Part shown: positions 7,098 to 62,578 of the stretch, one piece after another
How positions within the stretch are numbered: the stretch's first letter is position 1
Layout: every line of letters begins with the position of its first letter
Virus record (IMG/VR): IMGVR_UViG_3300014205_000170
Span: 160,001-224,000 of that record
Strand: one strand, 5' to 3'
Length of the DNA stretch: 64,000 nucleotides
Source of the DNA: a virus
Taxonomy: Duplodnaviria > Caudoviricetes
Program-made: the position numbers and the translations under genes
The notes under the pieces: generated by a model
The model's database searches: none
Seen by the model: the letters and a program-made list of their open reading frames with translations, nothing else
What the model was told of the DNA's origin: nothing

Positions 7098-7318
7098 AAC
7101 TTAAATACCAAATTATTTACAAGGTCCGCAGGCCACAAATTAGGAATTTTATTTAAATGTTTTTCGCAGATAACTATTCTTTCTTGAATTGATTCACAAT
7201 CTTCACAAAATCTATTAATTATTAGTTGTTGAGAATTGTCAAGAACTTCAATTTTAAGCCTACAATGTATATAGCAAAATCTTTCATGATATTTCTCTGT
7301 ATAAGATTTTTCCGACAT
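7094..7318 (-). CDS. Hypothetical Cys-rich protein carrying the RxVhhEK motif
   Basis: 74 aa; RIVICEK. Confidence 0.6.
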   Translation of the reverse strand: MSEKSYTEKYHERFCYIHCRLKIEVLDNSQQLIINRFCEDCESIQERIVICEKHLNKIPNLWPADLVNNLVFKL

Positions 7319-7590
7319 TAATTTTTTTCAATTCTAACTACTCGTTTTAATATATCAACTTCTTTAAATCTTTCGTTAAAAGATTCAGTACCTATTTGAT
7401 TCCAACAACTATTATCATCAATAACATACCCAGAAGGTTCCCATATAGAATTATTTGCATCTCCACCATTATGTTGTTGGTGTTCTTGATAAATCTTACC
7501 TTTTTTTAAAACTTGAACTTTAAAAGTAAAAGAAGCCACTCCACCATCATCAAGTCCATATTCATCTATTAAAGCTTCAAACTTTCTCAT
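7318..7590 (-). CDS. Hypothetical protein with a C-terminal RxVhhEK-like motif
   Basis: 90 aa; RVVRIEK at the C-terminus. Confidence 0.6.
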   Translation of the reverse strand: MRKFEALIDEYGLDDGGVASFTFKVQVLKKGKIYQEHQQHNGGDANNSIWEPSGYVIDDNSCWNQIGTESFNERFKEVDILKRVVRIEKN

Positions 7591-7790
7591 AATTCTTTTA
7601 AAACAAGATGGTCAGTCCCTTCCAAACATGCAATTCCACTTTCAAATCTTGACCTCAATACTCTTTTGGATTTTTTGGAATACTTCGACTCGAATCTTAA
7701 TGTATAATGTTTCCCTTCATTTAATTCACATGTTGCTTTTACTTGTTTTCCGTCTGGAACTTGAATTAGATAAGATTTTCCTGGTATCAT
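7587..7790 (-). CDS. Hypothetical protein
   Basis: 67 aa with ATGA overlaps. Confidence 0.55.
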   Translation of the reverse strand: MIPGKSYLIQVPDGKQVKATCELNEGKHYTLRFESKYSKKSKRVLRSRFESGIACLEGTDHLVLKEL

Positions 7791-8356
7791 GGTTGTTCAA
7801 TTTTTAAAATTATTTTTAAATGATTTAAATGAGCAGCAAGTGCTGCAATACAAGCACAAACATAAATAATTATTGCGAAAACACATCTAACAGTAGAGGT
7901 TGTTTTGGAAATATCAAAACTTAATAAACAAAATGAAAAGAGCAAATAAAATACGAAAACAATAATAAAAAAAATGATATATATGGATAACAATTTTTTA
8001 AACCAATTAAAAGATAATAATTTTATTGTAATTTCTTCATCTCTACCATTAGTCAATTCAACAATGTGCGTTTTACAATAAATACCAACTGGCGCTATAC
8101 CACACAGAAAAAATATAAGAAATATTAATCTATCTGCAATATCCCAGTTAAATAAATTTAAATTTAAACTTGTCATCACTGCCATGGAATACCCTAAAAT
8201 TAAGCTAGTAAGTGTAGCAATAATATTACAAATATTCCTTTTTATTTTTGACATTTTTATATCTCGCGTTCTTTTTAAAACTATATATCGATTAATTCCA
8301 GCTTTTTCCAACATTACTTTTCGTTCTAATTTATAAGGCCAAGTTAATGTTAACAT
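7787..8356 (-). CDS. Membrane protein (4 TM) with an N-terminal RxVhhEK motif
   Basis: Hydrophobic segments; RKVMLEK. Confidence 0.65.
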   Translation of the reverse strand: MLTLTWPYKLERKVMLEKAGINRYIVLKRTRDIKMSKIKRNICNIIATLTSLILGYSMAVMTSLNLNLFNWDIADRLIFLIFFLCGIAPVGIYCKTHIVELTNGRDEEITIKLLSFNWFKKLLSIYIIFFIIVFVFYLLFSFCLLSFDISKTTSTVRCVFAIIIYVCACIAALAAHLNHLKIILKIEQP

Positions 8357-57056: not shown

Positions 57057-57408
57057 TTAAAGGTTTTCTAATCTCTCTTTTATTTTTTTCAGCAATATAA
57101 AATGCTAAATCTTCACAATCGTTATTGTGCTCTCTAATACGTTTTTCTTTTAAAATAGTCTCTACTTTAGGTTTTATCATTTCATATATAACTTGATATT
57201 CTTCTTGTAAAATAGGTATTTGAATAGTATTAAACTTAACGAAAGAGTTATATTGATAACCAGAAATGGTTATGATATGTTTATGCTCAGTACCTAAGTA
57301 AACAGAAAAAAATTTATCAGAAATATGCAAACGAGCTTCTTCTGCTATAAGAAATTCACTTTGAAACAATTCCATTAAAACTTTTTTATCTACTTTTTCT
57401 AGTTCCAT
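57037..57408 (-). CDS. Hypothetical protein, paralog family A
   Basis: LMELFQ...FVKFNT...EEY; RKPLIEK. Confidence 0.65.
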   Translation of the reverse strand: MELEKVDKKVLMELFQSEFLIAEEARLHISDKFFSVYLGTEHKHIITISGYQYNSFVKFNTIQIPILQEEYQVIYEMIKPKVETILKEKRIREHNNDCEDLAFYIAEKNKREIRKPLIEKSNG

Positions 57409-60400
57409 TATGAATAAACAAATTGTGATATACCAGCTTCTGCATTTGATAATATATCGGGGTCAGTAATTCCTTGTTTGGTTTTTTGTACTTCAATAAT
57501 ATTATCCACAAAATCTCTTACTTCACTCTTATGAGTAACAATAAAAATGTTTTTGTATTTCGTTTTTAAATAATTAAATACTCCGCTTAATTCCATTAAT
57601 TTTCTATTATCTAAAGTATCAAATCCTTCATCAATTACCTTAAGAGATGGTTTAATTAAAACGCTCACATAATGTAGAGCATCACTTATAGCAGTGCTGG
57701 TAATAAACTTAACAGAACCTGACCCCATATTTAAAGGTAATGTATCAGTCTTATTTTCACTAAAGTAAAATATTTCTTTCACATCGCCATTTGGCTTAAC
57801 ATACATTTCTACCTTAAATGCAACCATTCCTTTTAAAAGACTGTTGATTTTATGATTAATAAAAGGTACTTTCTTTTTAATAATCATAGCCGGAATACCA
57901 TCTTTGCCAACCGCTTGCAAATACACTGAATATTTTTTATAAATCCTATCTGTTTCTCTTATCGAATTTAATTTTTCAGTTAAAGTTTCAATGTTGTTTT
58001 TCCAGGCCCCAATATTACCTGAACTTTCTTTTATTTTAGAATCTACTTGTAAATTTAAAGTCTTATATACTTTAATCTCTTCGTGTAAATTTTGAATAAC
58101 ATTATTAATGGCATCATTCTCAATGATGAACTCTTTGTTTTTTTCTAAAACAACAATTTGTTCTTCTAATTGTTTAATAGTTTTAGCTTTCTCTTCATTA
58201 AGTAATTTTAGCGCATTGACTTGACCTACAACTGCATCTACTTTGGAATTTCCAGAAACAATTTCTTGTTTTTGTATATATTTTTCCAACAAATCAATAT
58301 GAGATTGAAAATCTACATTCTCCTTTTCTTTGTTTTCAATTAAGCTTTTAATCTTTTTTATAGCCGTTGCAACTACATCAATAGAATCATTATGTTTTTC
58401 AATTTCTTCTTTTTGGCCACAAAGCTCAAGATTCGCTTTTAACGTTTGAATGTTTTTATGATGAGCTTGAATTGTAACTTTAAGAGAGTTGTATTTATTT
58501 GTTTCCTTATCATGTTTTGCATTATGTTCAATATTGGTTTTAATAACCTCTAAGGCTTTTTGCGCATCCTTTAAAGCCTTATCGCCTCTCTCAAAATCAG
58601 CAATACATTTTTTCTCTAATTCTAAATTTGGCTCATGGCTAACGTGATTGCAGGTAGGACATTTTTCACCTTTTGCTAACTTTATTTTATCGCTTAATCC
58701 AGCTAAAGCAACGCGAAAATCAGCTATTTTAGTCTCTAACTCTTCTTGTCCTTTTACTGGTGCAATAGGATTTGCTTTCAACCATTCTTCAATAGTGACA
58801 TATGAACTTTTTTCAGAATTAAAAATAGTTTTTTCAGAATTTAATTCTTTTTCAACATCAGCCTTAATTAAAGTAGATAAGTGTTCCGGTAAATCTTTTT
58901 TAAAGTTTTTTTCTAACCAAGATTCTTTTTCTAACAATAATTGTTTTTGAGACTCTATAAATTCTTTACCCTTAACAATATTGTCTTTTAAGACAGCAAT
59001 ATTTTTCTCTTTAATATGAGTTACATCTAAAGAGTTTAATTCTTCTGATAATTCTTTCTTAAAATTTGTTTTAAACCAATTTTCGTGTTCTTCTAAAGTT
59101 TTATTGTTATTTGTTAACTCATTTTTAAGAAGACCAATTTTAGTATTAATGACTGTTTCATCTTTTTCAGCCGGTATTTCTATTTTGTGTAATTTCTTTG
59201 TTGATTCTAATATTTTATTATTAAGATTATCAATCTGTTTATTGTTAGCTTCTTTTTCTTCTTGTAATGTTTTCAAAGACTCATTTTCAAGAGTTGTTTT
59301 GTTTTGAAAATCTGTTATTTGAGCATCTAACTCAACTGGGTCACCTAATACTTTTTGCTTAGACTTAATAGTTTTAAAAGTATCATTAGCCACATCATAT
59401 CTATCACGATAAATTTCCAAACCCAAAAATTTATTGATAAGGTCATTTTTTGGTTGTTGTGCAAGACTTAAATAATGCTGTCCATCACTTTGCATAGCAC
59501 AAACCATAAAGTCTTCATATGTTCCAATATAATCTACAATCAGTTTTTTGGTTTCCTTTTTTTCTGTTGCTGCTTCTTCTGATTCAACATCTACCCACTG
59601 TAATTCAGTTTCTCCAGTTAAATCACTTACAACGTTTTTTGCTTTTTTATATTCAATATTATAACTTACCTCAGAAGTACCGTCTTTTTTCTTTTTAACT
59701 GTTGCTGCTCTATAGGCAAAATATCGAGTACCAGCAATAGTGAAATAAATCTTCCCCCATCCTTTTGGATTGTTGGTGTATAAATTTACAATCTTTGCAC
59801 TTTCTAAATCGCCAGGCATTTTACCATAAGCAATCCAACAAAATACTTTCATGAAATTTGATTTACCATTATAGTTGGGACCAAATATTCCGGTAATACC
59901 TTTAAGTCTATCAAAATCAAAGAATGTAGGCTCTACGGAAAAAGAAAGTAGATTACTTACTTCCATACTATTGAATTCAATCCTTTTTCCATGAGTTGGA
60001 TTTTTCTTGACATTCAATTTTTTATCTATCTCCTTGTTTAATTCTATAACATCATCAGTATTCTCGTAATTATTTTGCTTCAAATATTCAACAAGAAGAC
60101 TTTCTGCACTTTCAGCATTATTTACATCAATAACATCAGTGTCTATTTCAGATTCTTGAACTTCTTTATCAATAGTTTGATAATCTACACTTACCGATTC
60201 ACAACCAAATCTATCTTTAATATACTTTTCAATTTGACTTAACTTCTCAACTGAATAGTTTTCTTTATCATCGTGTATGATAACTTCTACTTTAGTTTTC
60301 TTTCTGTTGAGAGAAAATTTCAAATCTTGCAATCTATCTTCCCATAACTCACCTTTAAAAATATTTAATTTACAATAACCATAATCATTAAGAATAAACC

Positions 60401-60536
60401 GACGTTTATGTTCACATGTATTTAAATTCCAAACTAAATAACCCTTTTCAATAGACTCCCCAAAATTCTGCTGGAGAAGGCTGGATGCATAAGCTGCAGA
60501 TTCAATTTTTCTTCTTATTTTTATTTTTTTTGTCAT
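57408..60536 (-). CDS. sbcC: C-terminal piece of a split SbcD-SbcC (Mre11-Rad50) fusion: SbcD C-terminal part plus full SbcC ATPase
   Basis: Begins with SbcD-type AYASSLLQQNFGE..KGY. Walker A GPNYNGKS, zinc hook CPTC, Walker B VIDEGFDTLD, H-loop VTH. Confidence 0.9.
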   Translation of the reverse strand: MTKKIKIRRKIESAAYASSLLQQNFGESIEKGYLVWNLNTCEHKRRFILNDYGYCKLNIFKGELWEDRLQDLKFSLNRKKTKVEVIIHDDKENYSVEKLSQIEKYIKDRFGCESVSVDYQTIDKEVQESEIDTDVIDVNNAESAESLLVEYLKQNNYENTDDVIELNKEIDKKLNVKKNPTHGKRIEFNSMEVSNLLSFSVEPTFFDFDRLKGITGIFGPNYNGKSNFMKVFCWIAYGKMPGDLESAKIVNLYTNNPKGWGKIYFTIAGTRYFAYRAATVKKKKDGTSEVSYNIEYKKAKNVVSDLTGETELQWVDVESEEAATEKKETKKLIVDYIGTYEDFMVCAMQSDGQHYLSLAQQPKNDLINKFLGLEIYRDRYDVANDTFKTIKSKQKVLGDPVELDAQITDFQNKTTLENESLKTLQEEKEANNKQIDNLNNKILESTKKLHKIEIPAEKDETVINTKIGLLKNELTNNNKTLEEHENWFKTNFKKELSEELNSLDVTHIKEKNIAVLKDNIVKGKEFIESQKQLLLEKESWLEKNFKKDLPEHLSTLIKADVEKELNSEKTIFNSEKSSYVTIEEWLKANPIAPVKGQEELETKIADFRVALAGLSDKIKLAKGEKCPTCNHVSHEPNLELEKKCIADFERGDKALKDAQKALEVIKTNIEHNAKHDKETNKYNSLKVTIQAHHKNIQTLKANLELCGQKEEIEKHNDSIDVVATAIKKIKSLIENKEKENVDFQSHIDLLEKYIQKQEIVSGNSKVDAVVGQVNALKLLNEEKAKTIKQLEEQIVVLEKNKEFIIENDAINNVIQNLHEEIKVYKTLNLQVDSKIKESSGNIGAWKNNIETLTEKLNSIRETDRIYKKYSVYLQAVGKDGIPAMIIKKKVPFINHKINSLLKGMVAFKVEMYVKPNGDVKEIFYFSENKTDTLPLNMGSGSVKFITSTAISDALHYVSVLIKPSLKVIDEGFDTLDNRKLMELSGVFNYLKTKYKNIFIVTHKSEVRDFVDNIIEVQKTKQGITDPDILSNAEAGISQFVYS

Positions 60537-61419
60537 ATTGTTTTATCTTATTTAGCAACAAATTTTCAAATTTTTCTTCTTTTATTTCATTTTCCCAAAA
60601 TCTTATTAAATTATATTTTTGTTGTTTAGCTAAATCATTTTTAAATTTATCATTTTTTATATTCATTTTTTGTATTTCATTTAATGATTTGAATATTTTT
60701 GAATTTCCATGCCAATAATCGCCATCAGCTTCAATCAATATATTATTTTTTTCTAAAAAAAAATCATATATTTTATATTCTTTCATATTGAAGAATACAT
60801 AAAAATTCTTCACATATTTTATGTTGTTTTTTTCTAGTATATTTTTAATTATTTTTTCAATATTAGTTTCTTGTGTTTTAAAAAGTTGTATTCTAGCTAA
60901 CTCAAGAGACGATTTTCCATATTTTAAAATTGTTGCTTTTTCTCCTTTTTCTCTTATTTCTTTATTCTTCCAATTGTGGTCTACGCCATATCTGCTCAAA
61001 TTAGTTTCTTTTCTTTTTTGGTTTGAATTATCATCTGTGCCGGGCCAATAACCATTTTTATCTTTAAATTTCTTTTGACCAATTTTTACTCTTTCCTTAT
61101 GTCCATTTTGTTTCCATAACTTTTTTGTTGCTTTAGAACGAATTATTTTTTCATCTTCAGTAATTTTACGTGCAAAACTAGGATTATTTTCTCCAGAATA
61201 TATTTCTTTTTGATGTGTGTCTTTACAATTTCGAGAACAATATTTTTTACCTATTACATTAATTCTATATTCAGTATCTTCAAACATTTCATTACAAAAT
61301 AAACAATTCTTTTTTATTCTTTTTGCTGTTGGTTGTTTATAGCCTTCATATTGACATTCCTCAGAACAATAAACTTTATTGTTAGTTTTTTTATTACAAT
61401 TTTTACATTCTCTTTCCAT
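60502..61419 (-). mobile_element. Inserted endonuclease gene (zinc-finger repeats plus a DUF559/Vsr-like domain)
   Basis: YCSEECQ and YCSRNCK repeats; TNIE...YDF...IEADGDYWH...ND..K...LIRFWE. Lies between the two sbcD pieces. Probable start at MEREC. Confidence 0.8.
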
Positions 61420-61469
61420 AGTTTTGTTGTTTTCAAATAAAAAGTACAACAAAACTTTTAAGAGCACAA

Positions 61470-62177
61470 TTAAACAGTCCAGCCTTCATTTTTATATTTC
61501 TCCAACTCTGATTCATCTATAAGTTTTTCTTCGATTCTTTCAAAAGCTTGATATTCGTGGATATCTCCAAGCATAACAATGTCAAAATTCTTAAAAGTAG
61601 ATAGATTAGTTAAATCATCGCCTTTCATCTCATATCCATTATCTCCTACACAACCATATATAGGACCATGAAATAATGCTATATATTTTTTGTTCTTTTT
61701 CTTTTCCGTCAAGGTGAGAACGTTACTGTCCCAGCAAGAGTATACGCCATACACAATTTCATCATCAATATCATAGAAAGCCGTATCTCTATAAAAATAT
61801 ATACCGTTTTTTCCATCACTAGGAATGGGAAGAATTGGATTCTCTTTTGTAATGATAAAACCATTATCTAAAAGCTCTATTATAGGCGAAATAGCATTTC
61901 CTTGAGACAAAGATTGCATGTTAAGGTCATGATTACCTAAAATAACATCTACTGGGGCTATTTTGGATAAATTACGTAGGAATTCACCGGCAATCTCAAC
62001 GGCAGTAGGGGAAAGATTGATTTTAATGTGAAATAAATCACCAGTAAATATAATTCGACGCGGCTTTAAGGTTTTAATATCTTCAACTGTTCTTTGTAAA
62101 ACAGTTCTGAATTCATCATGCCTACTACCAAATCGAATATGAATATCACTTAAATGTACTAAATCATTTTTTGCCAT
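61470..62177 (-). CDS. sbcD: N-terminal piece of the split SbcD/Mre11 nuclease
   Basis: SDIH, GDLFH, GNHD, FHG and GDIH metallophosphoesterase motifs. Ends shortly after the last motif. Start at MAKND. Confidence 0.9.
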   Translation of the reverse strand: MAKNDLVHLSDIHIRFGSRHDEFRTVLQRTVEDIKTLKPRRIIFTGDLFHIKINLSPTAVEIAGEFLRNLSKIAPVDVILGNHDLNMQSLSQGNAISPIIELLDNGFIITKENPILPIPSDGKNGIYFYRDTAFYDIDDEIVYGVYSCWDSNVLTLTEKKKNKKYIALFHGPIYGCVGDNGYEMKGDDLTNLSTFKNFDIVMLGDIHEYQAFERIEEKLIDESELEKYKNEGWTV

Positions 62178-62248
62178 GTTTGCTCCTTTAAAAAGATAGA
62201 ACAAATTTAGCAATTTTAACCTGAAAAAATGACTTCTTTATAAAAAGT

Positions 62249-62578
62249 TTATAAATTAGTTTTTCTTCTATATTTTTCTATTACTCGAAGCATCTGTTGT
62301 AAGATAGTGCTATCAGTTAAAATGCGTTGATGAGGGAAACCAACCACTAGGGCCGTTATGCCTAGATGATTTGTTAAAGCTAAAATATGCTCATCAAACT
62401 CTGATTTCATAAAAACAGGAACACCATTTAGTTCACATAATCTTATAAGGCTCGTTTTTACTGGAACACTAATTATAAATTTTTTTTCAAACAAAACATT
62501 CCGATAATAAAAATCATTAATATTATCAATTTGAGGTATAAAAATTTGTTTCAAGGTTGATAATATAAGTTTGAACAA
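62249..62578 (-). CDS. Hypothetical protein with the RxVhhEK motif
   Basis: RNVLFEK. Confidence 0.6.
   Translation of the reverse strand: MFKLILSTLKQIFIPQIDNINDFYYRNVLFEKKFIISVPVKTSLIRLCELNGVPVFMKSEFDEHILALTNHLGITALVVGFPHQRILTDSTILQQMLRVIEKYRRKTNL

What the first reader, a model, noticed from the sequence alone, without database searches (positions are those of the whole stretch)
57408..62177. SbcD-SbcC fusion split by an intronless endonuclease, with charge-complementary ends
Seen: the nuclease ORF stops about 25 aa after GDIH, and the rest of SbcD (AYASSLLQQNFGE) starts the next large ORF, fused in frame to SbcC. A Vsr/DUF559-like endonuclease gene fills the gap, with about 50 nt of spacer on one side and an overlap on the other, so there is no obvious room for a group I ribozyme outside the ORF. 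No intein Cys or His-Asn termini are present. The N-piece ends with an acidic tail (IEEKLIDESELEKYKNEGWTV) and the C-piece starts with a basic one (MTKKIKIRRK). Established precedent: nrdA of phage Aeh1 is split by mobE and reassembles non-covalently. Inference: this is a genes-in-pieces Mre11-Rad50 reassembled through an electrostatic zipper at a surface loop.
Basis: partly seen in the sequence, partly recalled or inferred. Interest (0 to 1): 0.7.

Follow-up and report, generated by a model that had tools for sequence, protein, structure and literature searches.

The report
Endonuclease-split phage SbcD-SbcC gene
A giant phage's DNA-repair nuclease gene (a fused SbcD-SbcC) has been cut in two by a selfish endonuclease gene with no intron or intein. 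The two halves carry a conserved acidic tail and basic head that recur in hundreds of related metagenomic phage genes and probably clip the halves back together.

Summary
On the minus strand, a 235-aa SbcD nuclease core (62177-61470) ends 28 aa after motif V (GDIH). A 305-aa free-standing endonuclease gene follows (61419-60502). A 1042-aa ORF (60536-57408) then supplies the rest of SbcD fused to a complete SbcC. The three ORFs use different frames, and there is no Rfam intron hit and no intein signature.

The closest relative (L012, 71% aa) is uninterrupted. A 1060-bp cassette (60474-61533) replaces 36 bp that encode its hairpin loop.

The arrangement has a precedent. Dassa et al. 2009 (PMC2677866) described one metagenomic SbcD-like gene broken by a Vsr-like homing endonuclease, without an intein, and with 25-aa and 9-aa extra peptides at the break.

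New here:
- The acidic tail (hydrophobic-x-D-E-x-E-L-x-x-Y-x-x-x-G-W) and the basic head (M-x-K-K-I-K-I-K-K) occur in all 20 split loci of 88 examined, and in at least 86 of the 120 best short homologues.
- They persist when the endonuclease is lost or replaced, and they are under purifying selection.
- They come and go as one block between sister genes.
- In a contiguous relative they fold confidently as strand-helix-strand.

Non-covalent reassembly is well supported by comparison but has not been shown. I file it as a new member of a known kind.

The parts
61470..62177 (-). SbcD N-piece (235 aa plus stop): the nuclease core with metal-binding motifs I-V. The start is taken as the ATG at 62177 with AAAGGAG upstream; the ORF listing gives an upstream TTG at 62213.
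   Evidence: Pfam Metallophos E 1.3e-12 and PHROG 100 SbcD-like. 71% aa identity to the N part of the uninterrupted L012 gene. dN/dS 0.09 against L012.
61473..61538 (-). Acidic tail of the N-piece (RIEEKLIDESELEKYKNEGWTV). It is absent from uninterrupted homologues. The predicted layout is a strand followed by a helix ending in GW.
   Evidence: alignment; charge; DNA homology to L012 stops at about 61534; 76 canonical tails among the 120 best short homologues; secondary structure of the equivalent stretch in L080.
60474..61533 (-). Inserted cassette relative to the uninterrupted allele: tail coding, stop, hairpin, endonuclease gene and head coding. Its 1060 bp replace 36 bp of L012 (6646-6681). 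The boundaries are approximate, taken from the ends of BLAST homology.
   Evidence: Equivalent indels occur between L018 and L020 (2.4 kb for 36 bp) and between L030 and L035 (203 nt for 41 nt).
61420..61456 (-). RNA hairpin (GUUUUGUUGU...ACAACAAAAC) that ends just 5' of the endonuclease AUG. It probably limits endonuclease translation.
   Evidence: -14.9 kcal/mol, z -2.1, 6 of 200 shuffles fold as well. The same stem sequence lies upstream of the homologous endonuclease genes in L018 (z -3.1) and L031. Hairpins upstream of such endonuclease genes are described in PMC2677866.
60502..61419 (-). Free-standing homing endonuclease gene (305 aa). It has N-terminal CxxC...C-x2-C zinc-finger-like repeats, DUF7487-like repeats and a C-terminal Vsr-like (I-Bth0305I / EDxHD family) nuclease domain.
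   Evidence: PHROG homing endonuclease families at E 5e-9 to 4e-8. Weak Pfam Vsr, DUF559 and DUF7487 hits. Nuclease-domain profile against PDB 3R3P at E 9.4e-7. Homologues at the same site in L018 (54% aa) and L031 (41%), and a 100-aa remnant in L065.
60502..60536 (-). 35-nt overlap between the 3' end of the endonuclease gene and the 5' end of the C-piece. No Shine-Dalgarno motif was seen before the C-piece AUG, so translational coupling or reinitiation is possible.
   Evidence: The same kind of overlap is reported for fractured genes, including the sbcD-like one, in PMC2677866.
60495..60536 (-). Basic head of the C-piece (MTKKIKIRRKIESA). It is absent from uninterrupted homologues. It is a predicted beta-strand with alternating hydrophobic and basic residues.
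57408..60536 (-). C-piece (1042 aa): head, last strands of the SbcD nuclease domain (AYASSLLQQNFGE), capping domain, linker and a complete SbcC/Rad50 ATPase with zinc hook.
   Evidence: dN/dS 0.17 against L012.

Best explanation
This is a 'fractured' gene: genes in pieces, with no intron and no intein. A single-chain phage SbcD-SbcC (Mre11-Rad50) gene was invaded, at the tip of the beta-hairpin that follows nuclease motif V, by a cassette about 1.06 kb long. The cassette carries a free-standing Vsr-like homing endonuclease gene.

The cassette does more than interrupt the gene. It replaces the native loop of about 7 residues with three things:
- a 22-aa acidic extension plus a stop codon on the upstream piece;
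- the endonuclease gene behind a translation-damping hairpin;
- a start codon plus a 14-aa basic extension on the downstream piece.

The two pieces are translated separately. The most likely route to an active enzyme is as follows. The acidic strand of the tail pairs antiparallel with the basic strand of the head, which lengthens the native hairpin. The ELxxYxxxGW helix caps this ribbon. The downstream piece then supplies the last strands of the nuclease beta-sandwich, the capping domain and SbcC.

The endonuclease presumably cuts uninterrupted alleles in co-infecting phages. Repair would then copy the whole block, tail and head included.

Shown here: the anatomy, the insertion point, the absence of an intron or intein, the recurrence and conservation of the tail and head, and their gain or loss as one block. 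Inferred: physical reassembly, strand pairing, endonuclease activity and homing.
For: Insertion point
- L012 (71% aa) reads GDIHEYQAFE-MNGVERI-AYPGSLIQQNFGE. The window has a tail, an endonuclease gene and a head at that loop.

No intron or intein
- An Rfam E-value scan of 59800-62300 gives only noise.
- A, B and C use different frames, and Pfam finds no intein.
- Seven related split loci have only -4 to +4 nt between the pieces, which leaves no room for a ribozyme.

Recurrence
- 20 of 88 related viral loci are split at this loop. All have acidic tails (-3 to -10) and basic heads (+1 to +6). The 65 whole genes with a readable loop have loops of median 11 aa and mean charge 0.1.
- Among the 120 best proteins of N-piece length (of 437 clusters at E<=1e-10), 76 have the canonical tail and 10 a variant (4 more variant-like tails were left unclassified). 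83 of these 86 tails are net negative.

Selection
- Tail plus head has dN/dS 0.07-0.24, against 0.03-0.13 for the core.
- The split L018 against the whole L020 gives 0.02-0.05. The window against L012 gives 0.09 and 0.17.

Persistence without the endonuclease
- The gap holds a homologous endonuclease gene (L018, L031), a remnant of one (L065), an endonuclease with a different (TnsA-like) nuclease domain (L002), an unrelated 311-aa ORF (7 loci), or nothing.

Mobility as a block
- The split state needs 10-11 changes on the SbcD tree.
- The sisters L018 and L020 (95% aa) differ by 2.4 kb replacing 36 bp. DNA identity is depressed for about 150 nt next to the cassette, and upstream dS is 1.43 against 0.35 downstream.
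- L030 and L035 differ by 203 nt replacing 41 nt.

Structure
- In L080 the tail and head are contiguous. AF2 (pLDDT 92.5) gives strand 200-211, helix 212-220, strand 224-227, loop 228-232 (the break site in split forms) and strand 233-244.
- The model matches the SbcD/Mre11 nuclease plus capping domains.

Endonuclease family
- A profile of the nuclease domain hits I-Bth0305I at E 9.4e-7.
- A hairpin upstream of the endonuclease AUG is conserved.
Against: - Nothing here demonstrates association of the two polypeptides or nuclease activity.
- Strand-to-strand pairing is inferred from the order of secondary-structure elements in a model of a relative. No contacts were available.
- No Shine-Dalgarno motif precedes the C-piece start, so how much C-piece is made is unknown.
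- dS is saturated (above 1) in most comparisons, so the dN/dS values are rough.
- Endonuclease aa identity between loci (54% and 41%) tracks SbcD identity (57% and 39%). That fits long co-residence as well as repeated transfer.
- One relative (L080) has the module uninterrupted. The module may therefore have begun as an ordinary loop insertion rather than as part of the mobile element.
Confidence: 0.75

Rival explanations
1. The tail and head are an ordinary lineage-specific loop insertion of SbcD (a longer hairpin with a helix) that came before any endonuclease. Endonuclease genes and other genes later landed in its tip because it is a permissive site. The peptides are not an adaptation to being split and are not cargo of the mobile element.
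For: L080 carries the module uninterrupted, and the model is confident. L059 (split) and L080 are collinear through the module. Loop length varies naturally; L010 has a 23-aa loop. Several unrelated genes occupy the gap.
Against: Only 1 of the 66 uninterrupted genes whose loop could be read has the module, and it sits inside a clade of split genes. Sister pairs (L018/L020, window/L012, L030/L035) differ by the whole block, and the whole-gene loops are homologous across their clades. The module therefore arrived together with the break. The charge pattern is specific to split forms.
Confidence: 0.15
2. The intervening DNA is removed at the RNA or protein level (by a group I or II intron, an intein or split intein, or translational bypass), so that a single SbcD-SbcC chain is made.
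For: Vsr-like endonucleases do occur in group I introns and between split-intein halves (PMC2677866). A and C happen to be in the same frame, 936 nt apart.
Against: Rfam gives no intron hit even at E<=10. Only 50 nt of the insert lies outside ORFs. Endonuclease-less relatives have -4 to +4 nt between the pieces. The tail (22 aa) and head (14 aa) are far shorter than intein halves. They lack a junction Cys/Ser and a His-Asn, and Pfam finds no Hint domain. In L002 the pieces are not in the same frame. Known bypasses span tens of nucleotides, not about 930.
Confidence: 0.04
3. The split gene is a decaying pseudogene, and the phage no longer has a working SbcCD.
For: No Shine-Dalgarno motif precedes the C-piece. 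No expression data are available.
Against: An intact 1042-aa ORF in DNA of 27% G+C, with all catalytic motifs intact. dN/dS is 0.09 and 0.17 against L012, and 0.02-0.05 in the split L018 against the whole L020. Hundreds of split homologues keep the same architecture.
Confidence: 0.04

Closest known systems
SbcD-like 'fractured gene' from Lake Gatun GOS data (Dassa, London, Stoddard, Pietrokovski 2009, NAR 37:2560; PMC2677866)
   Same: An SbcD-like gene broken into two ORFs, with a Vsr-like putative homing endonuclease ORF between them and no split intein. There are 25 extra residues at the C-terminus of the upstream ORF and 9 at the N-terminus of the downstream ORF that intact SbcD lacks. The 3' end of the endonuclease gene overlaps the downstream ORF. 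Hairpins lie upstream of such endonuclease genes.
   Different: That report covers one partial metagenomic locus, and the text I read gives no interpretation of the extra peptides. I could not see its sequence (no supplement is held), so I could not test whether it has the same motif. Here the gene is a complete SbcD-SbcC fusion in a closed 519-kb phage genome. The peptides are shown to be a conserved, selected module that recurs in many lineages, with and without the endonuclease.
Aeh1 nrdA split by mobE (Friedrich et al. 2007 PNAS, as summarised in PMC2988022); also T4 gene 39/60 with mobA, and phage 25 gene 43 with a seg-like gene
   Same: A free-standing homing endonuclease gene splits an essential DNA-metabolism gene without an intron or intein. 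The pieces are made separately and reassemble; this was shown for NrdA and gp43.
   Different: The endonuclease family differs (HNH or GIY-YIG) and so does the host gene. The review I read describes no conserved, charge-complementary adaptor peptides at the break, and it leaves open how the split polypeptides assemble.
Naturally split inteins (DnaE type, and those of fractured genes)
   Same: Two halves associate through two long antiparallel beta-strands of opposite net charge. In DnaE and three GOS cases the N-half is negative and the C-half positive. A homing endonuclease gene often sits between the halves.
   Different: There is no Hint fold, no catalytic Cys/Ser/Asn and no ligation. The peptides are 22 and 14 aa, against roughly 100 and 35 aa for intein halves. 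They are expected to stay in the mature enzyme.
I-Bth0305I (EDxHD / Vsr-like homing endonuclease, PDB 3R3P; Taylor et al. 2011, PMC3239194)
   Same: The nuclease domain is homologous (profile E 9.4e-7). Both have a modular build with a separate N-terminal DNA-binding region.
   Different: I-Bth0305I is encoded in a group I intron of recA. The endonuclease here is free-standing and has zinc-finger-like and DUF7487-like repeats in its N-terminal part.

Membership tests
Fractured gene / genes in pieces made by a free-standing homing endonuclease (no intron, no intein) | Two adjacent ORFs are collinear with the N and C parts of an uninterrupted homologue | tested here: met
   L012, Mel-JY01 and 60+ other loci are uninterrupted, and the break maps to the 7-8-aa loop between GDIHxxQ and AYxGS.
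Fractured gene / genes in pieces made by a free-standing homing endonuclease (no intron, no intein) | A homing endonuclease ORF lies between the pieces and is not in frame with them | tested here: met
Fractured gene / genes in pieces made by a free-standing homing endonuclease (no intron, no intein) | No self-splicing RNA or protein element | tested here: met
   No intron in the Rfam scan. No intein in Pfam. Endonuclease-less relatives have abutting ORFs. A negative search cannot exclude an undescribed ribozyme.
Fractured gene / genes in pieces made by a free-standing homing endonuclease (no intron, no intein) | The pieces reassemble into an active enzyme | not testable with these tools
   Only indirect support: purifying selection on both pieces and on the tail and head.
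Vsr-like / EDxHD homing endonucleases (I-Bth0305I family) | Nuclease domain homologous to I-Bth0305I / Vsr | tested here: met
   Profile A5 against PDB 3R3P: E 9.4e-7, covering positions 3-99 of 119. The invariant E-x-D-G-x-Y-W block aligns.
Vsr-like / EDxHD homing endonucleases (I-Bth0305I family) | Reaches the Pfam Vsr or DUF559 gathering score | tested here: not met
   Vsr 17.4 bits against a cut-off of 27. DUF559 16.5 bits against 20.6. This is a divergent member; the profile-to-structure match above carries the assignment.
Vsr-like / EDxHD homing endonucleases (I-Bth0305I family) | Cleaves the endonuclease-less allele near the insertion site | not testable with these tools
   Needs a cleavage assay on L012-type sequence.
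Mre11 / SbcD nuclease | Phosphoesterase motifs I-V and the Mre11 fold with capping domain | tested here: met
   Motifs by direct reading. Pfam Metallophos. A model of the homologue L080 matches SbcD 7DOG at E 1.6e-9, and Mre11 and SbcD structures generally.
Rad50 / SbcC ATPase | Walker A, zinc hook CxxC in a long coiled coil, signature motif, Walker B, H-loop | tested here: met
   Pfam AAA_23 at E 1.6e-11 and PHROG 77 at E 2.2e-40.
Group I / II intron | Ribozyme core detectable by covariance model | tested here: not met
   One search gives only three noise hits (E 1.1-9.4) to unrelated families.
Split intein | Hint blocks, an N-terminal Cys/Ser at the junction, and a C-terminal His-Asn followed by Cys/Ser/Thr | tested here: not met
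   The tail begins RIEE and the head ends IESA followed by AY. There is no Pfam intein hit. At 22 and 14 aa the peptides are too short.

The most novel reading that the evidence does not exclude
The acidic tail and basic head are not host-gene sequence. They are part of the mobile cassette, which would make them a portable 'split-and-clip' adaptor. The homing endonuclease element brings its own stop codon, start codon and a pair of charge-complementary strands (with a capping helix), so that the gene it breaks still yields a working enzyme. This would be a third way, beside self-splicing introns and inteins, for a selfish endonuclease gene to live inside an essential gene. After the endonuclease decays, the adaptor keeps the gene permanently in pieces and leaves a hot spot for other cargo genes.
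Probability: 0.5. Interest if true: 0.75.

Novelty: new member of a known kind. Interest (0 to 1): 0.55.

Why it matters
Edgell, Gibb and Belfort (2010) left open how polypeptides split by homing endonucleases find each other again. This family offers a natural and abundant test case: at least 86 of the 120 best N-piece-length protein clusters carry the tail.

It includes matched uninterrupted, split and re-joined versions of one enzyme. It also has a short, well-defined pair of peptides that can be deleted, swapped or charge-reversed.

If the peptides are sufficient for reassembly, they would be a compact natural alternative to split inteins or leucine zippers for protein-fragment complementation. 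It would also show that a selfish element can pay for its insertion with a protein-level adaptor rather than with splicing.

The data further show that single-chain Mre11-Rad50 fusions are common in large environmental phages.

Tried and rejected
- Complex prediction on A (alignment A2) with C residues 1-185 (alignment A3). The verdict was 'no answer': score 0.90, but one control with chain 1 replaced scored 0.74. I do not use it as evidence either way.
- A single-sequence AF2 run of L080 failed (pLDDT 38). It was repeated with an alignment.
- No model coordinates are exposed, so tail-head contacts could not be measured.
- blastn of the locus against cultured and deposited phages gave no match.
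- tblastn found only uncultured huge phages, Mel-JY01, pT24 and phiLo. No cultured phage has the split.
- A close-relative scan for the endonuclease in IMG/VR found nothing. Homologues were found instead inside the SbcD loci.
- phmmer of the whole endonuclease against the PDB gave noise only. A profile of the nuclease domain was needed.
- The look-up of sequencing runs listed no RNA holder.
- Read laying showed the source landfill contig spanning the whole stretch, short fragments from two other metagenomes, and no contig joining across the cassette.
- No supplement to PMC2677866 is held, so the 2009 SbcD tail could not be compared.
- I considered that the tail descends from the C-terminal module of a GIY-YIG endonuclease. 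One such ORF in this genome ends ...DELQKWINLGWIKGRKIKW. It is a single match in 1.46 Mb, so it remains only a lead.
- Promoter and terminator scans gave fewer sites than shuffled sequence did.

Full report
**Source and anatomy**

The window is bases 160001-224000 of a closed 518,809-bp virus record with direct terminal repeats. G+C is about 27%, and the DNA is held by a landfill metagenome run.

Three ORFs follow one another on the minus strand.
- **ORF A** most likely starts at the ATG at 62177, behind an AAAGGAG Shine-Dalgarno motif, and ends with TAA at 61470. Its 235 residues carry phosphoesterase motifs I-V. They match Pfam Metallophos (E 1.3e-12) and the PHROG family for the SbcD-like subunit.
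- **ORF B** (ATG 61419 to TGA 60502, 305 aa) starts 50 nt after A's stop.
- **ORF C** (60536-57408, 1042 aa) overlaps the end of B by 35 nt. It begins MTKKIKIRRKIESAAYASSLLQQNFGE. It continues through a capping-domain region into a complete SbcC with Walker A, a CPTC zinc hook, signature motif, Walker B and H-loop (Pfam AAA_23 and PHROG 77).

B is out of frame with both neighbours.

**Where the break lies**

Uninterrupted single-chain SbcD-SbcC genes exist in Microcystis phage Mel-JY01 (1066 aa) and Tenacibaculum phage pT24. They also exist in most of the window's closest IMG/VR relatives, at 1150-1180 aa.

The nearest relative, L012 (71% aa), reads GDIHEYQAFE-MNGVERI-AYPGSLIQQNFGE. The window keeps GDIHEYQAFE and AY.SSLLQQNFGE. 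Between them it has a 22-aa tail (RIEEKLIDESELEKYKNEGWTV), a stop codon, the endonuclease gene, and a 14-aa head (MTKKIKIRRKIESA).

At the DNA level, homology to L012 stops at about 61534 and resumes at about 60473. So 1060 bp replace 36 bp.

**Not an intron, intein or pseudogene**

- An Rfam scan of 59800-62300 at E<=10 gave three noise hits and no intron.
- Pfam finds no intein. The junction residues are not those of an intein, and the peptides are far too short.
- Seven related split loci have nothing between the pieces: the stop and the start are -4 to +4 nt apart. That excludes a ribozyme there.
- Both pieces are under purifying selection. dN/dS is 0.09 and 0.17 against L012. In the split L018 against its whole sister L020 it is 0.02 and 0.05. 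dS is saturated in the window/L012 comparisons (2.2 and 2.1) and high for the L018/L020 N core (1.43).

**The endonuclease**

PHROG places B in homing endonuclease families at E 5e-9 to 4e-8. Pfam gives only sub-threshold Vsr, DUF559 and DUF7487 hits.

I built a profile from the nuclease domains of B, of its homologues at the same site in L018 (54% aa) and L031 (41%), of the remnant in L065, and of a second copy in this genome. That profile hits I-Bth0305I (PDB 3R3P) at E 9.4e-7. B is thus a divergent member of the Vsr-like / EDxHD family.

A hairpin (GUUUUGUUGU...ACAACAAAAC) ends right before its AUG. The same stem recurs upstream of the L018 and L031 homologues.

**Recurrence of the tail and head**

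A profile scan of IMG/VR returned 80 loci. Together with earlier loci, 88 SbcD N-domains were compared.
- Twenty are split at exactly this loop (a twenty-first, L011, is a plain frameshift).
- Every split locus has a tail of the form hydrophobic-x-hydrophobic-[D/Y]-E-x-[D/E]-[L/V]-x-x-Y-x-x-x-G-W. Three loci (L043, L044, L058) use a D-L-x-K/N-Y-P variant, and L074 has a G-D in place of G-W.
- Every split locus has a head of the form M-x-K-K-[I/V]-[K/R]-[I/L]-[K/R]-K.
- Tail net charge is -3 to -10 and head net charge +1 to +6. The 65 whole genes with a readable loop have loops of median 11 aa with mean charge 0.1.

In the 5.8-billion-protein collection, 437 clusters of N-piece length match at E<=1e-10. 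Of the best 120, 76 end in the canonical tail and 10 in a variant (4 more variant-like tails were left unclassified). 83 of these 86 tails are net negative, with median charge -6 and median length 28 aa.

Within one clade, tail plus head has dN/dS 0.07-0.24, against 0.03-0.13 for the enzyme core.

**What sits in the gap**

The gap holds different things in different loci:
- a homologous Vsr-like endonuclease gene (window, L031);
- that gene plus a 159-aa ORF and an N6/N4 methyltransferase (L018, 2.3 kb);
- a 100-aa endonuclease remnant (L065);
- an endonuclease with a similar zinc-finger-rich N-terminal part but a TnsA-like nuclease domain (LR756508, L002);
- an unrelated 311-aa ORF (seven loci);
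- nothing (seven loci at -4 to +4 nt, and L030 with a 69-nt spacer).

The tail and head therefore outlive the endonuclease.

**The module moves as a block**

On a tree of the N-domains, the split state needs 10-11 changes, and at least 7-8 are forced by well-supported branches.

- **L018 and L020.** L018 (split) and L020 (whole) are sisters (SH-aLRT 98, 95-96% aa). They differ by 2.4 kb replacing 36 bp. DNA identity is 70-77% for about 150 nt next to the cassette and 93-98% beyond it. dS is 1.43 upstream and 0.35 downstream. This looks like co-conversion from a diverged donor. The loops of the whole genes in that clade are homologous to one another, so the whole state is ancestral there and L018 gained the block.
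- **L030 and L035.** L030 (split, no endonuclease) differs from L035 (whole) by 203 nt replacing 41 nt.
- **L080.** In L080 the tail and head are joined in one ORF (...TMEVDKENLERYIKIGWVVDDDKNSAKINIKKVIPICYSGS...). It is collinear with its split sister L059.

**Structure**

AF2 with a 102-row alignment models L080 residues 1-304 at pLDDT 92.5.
- GDIH is at residues 194-197.
- The module is strand 200-211, helix 212-220 (the ENLERYIK stretch), short strand 224-227, loop 228-232, and strand 233-244. Block pLDDT is 86-95.
- Split forms break at the loop 228-232.
- The model matches SbcD and Mre11 nuclease-plus-capping structures (7DOG_B at E 1.6e-9).

From this order of elements I infer that the acidic and basic strands pair antiparallel as an extension of the native hairpin after motif V. 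Contacts could not be read.

**Comparison with what is known**

Dassa et al. 2009 (PMC2677866) described 'fractured genes'. Among them was one Lake Gatun locus in which an SbcD-like gene is broken by a Vsr-like endonuclease gene without an intein. [quoted passage not shown]

That is the same arrangement, so the kind is known. The text I read offers no function for the extra peptides. For split inteins, however, the same authors argue that opposite charges on two long antiparallel strands drive association, which is the principle inferred here.

The Aeh1 nrdA/mobE, T4 39/60/mobA and phage 25 gene 43 cases are functional analogues with other endonuclease families.

**Verdict**

- **Observation:** confirmed.
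- **Interpretation:** supported, though reassembly is inferred and not shown.
- **This locus:** a new member of a known kind.
- **Added value:** the tail and head form a conserved, selected module that travels as a block, and the module is widespread in uncultured phages.
- **Open question:** whether that module is an adaptor belonging to the mobile element (probability about 0.5) or a pre-existing loop insertion that made the site permissive.

Noticed in passing
L031:7556-9019, L059:6632-10256, L065:6946-11075, L080:5962-9858: In this clade the downstream piece is broken a second time, about 75-98 aa after the head (the piece ends ...LTNL/LTNI/LTNG). One or two small ORFs (74-172 aa) lie before the large SbcC ORF. 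The gene is therefore in three or more pieces.
   Followed up: partly
L018:6713-8058: The cassette in L018 carries extra cargo upstream of the endonuclease gene: a 159-aa ORF with no Pfam family, and an N6/N4 DNA methyltransferase (PF01555, E 2.5e-27) that appears to be split over two ORFs (7180-7449 and 7450-8058).
   Followed up: partly
L048:6653-7585 (also L050, L073, L084, L085, L087, L088): In seven loci an unrelated ORF of about 311 aa (MTKILVRCRNIHIGD...) fills the gap between the SbcD pieces where others have the endonuclease gene. It has no Pfam family apart from one faint DUF354 hit. Its function is unknown.
   Followed up: partly
L002:5656-6573 (LR756508.1, 484-kb uncultured phage): At the same split site sits an endonuclease with a zinc-finger-rich N-terminal part similar to the window's. 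Its nuclease domain, however, is TnsA-like (PF08722, E 5.8e-6) rather than Vsr-like. This suggests a nuclease-domain swap on one DNA-binding scaffold.
   Followed up: partly
G000:C1:92640-93368 (outside the window; L092:641-1369): A GIY-YIG/NUMOD3 homing endonuclease of this phage ends ...KQIKPDELQKWINLGWIKGRKIKW. This is the same E-L-x-K-[YW]-x-x-x-G-W motif as the SbcD tail. It is the only other ORF end with the motif in 1.46 Mb scanned. It may hint at where the tail helix came from.
   Followed up: partly
G000:C1:367090-367377 (outside the window; L014): A second, stand-alone copy of the Vsr-like nuclease domain (46% aa identity to residues 183-283 of the endonuclease) lies in a 156-aa open frame.
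   Followed up: no
L011:5944-9484: An otherwise uninterrupted relative has a frameshift right after ...AYPGSLIQQDYGE, a few codons from the usual split site. It may be an assembly error or a real break.
   Followed up: no
window 57408-62177 and loci L005-L091: Single-chain SbcD-SbcC (Mre11-Rad50) fusions of 1040-1310 aa are the rule in this group of large environmental phages. In deposited records they are annotated only as 'AAA domain containing protein' or 'metallo-phosphoesterase'.
   Followed up: partly
L065:8823-11075: The large SbcC ORF of L065 begins with about 70 residues (…IEIGKLNDIFQKYGDLEFQVDTPYGFHDIEWCGI…) that do not look like SbcC. This may be another inserted element.
   Followed up: no
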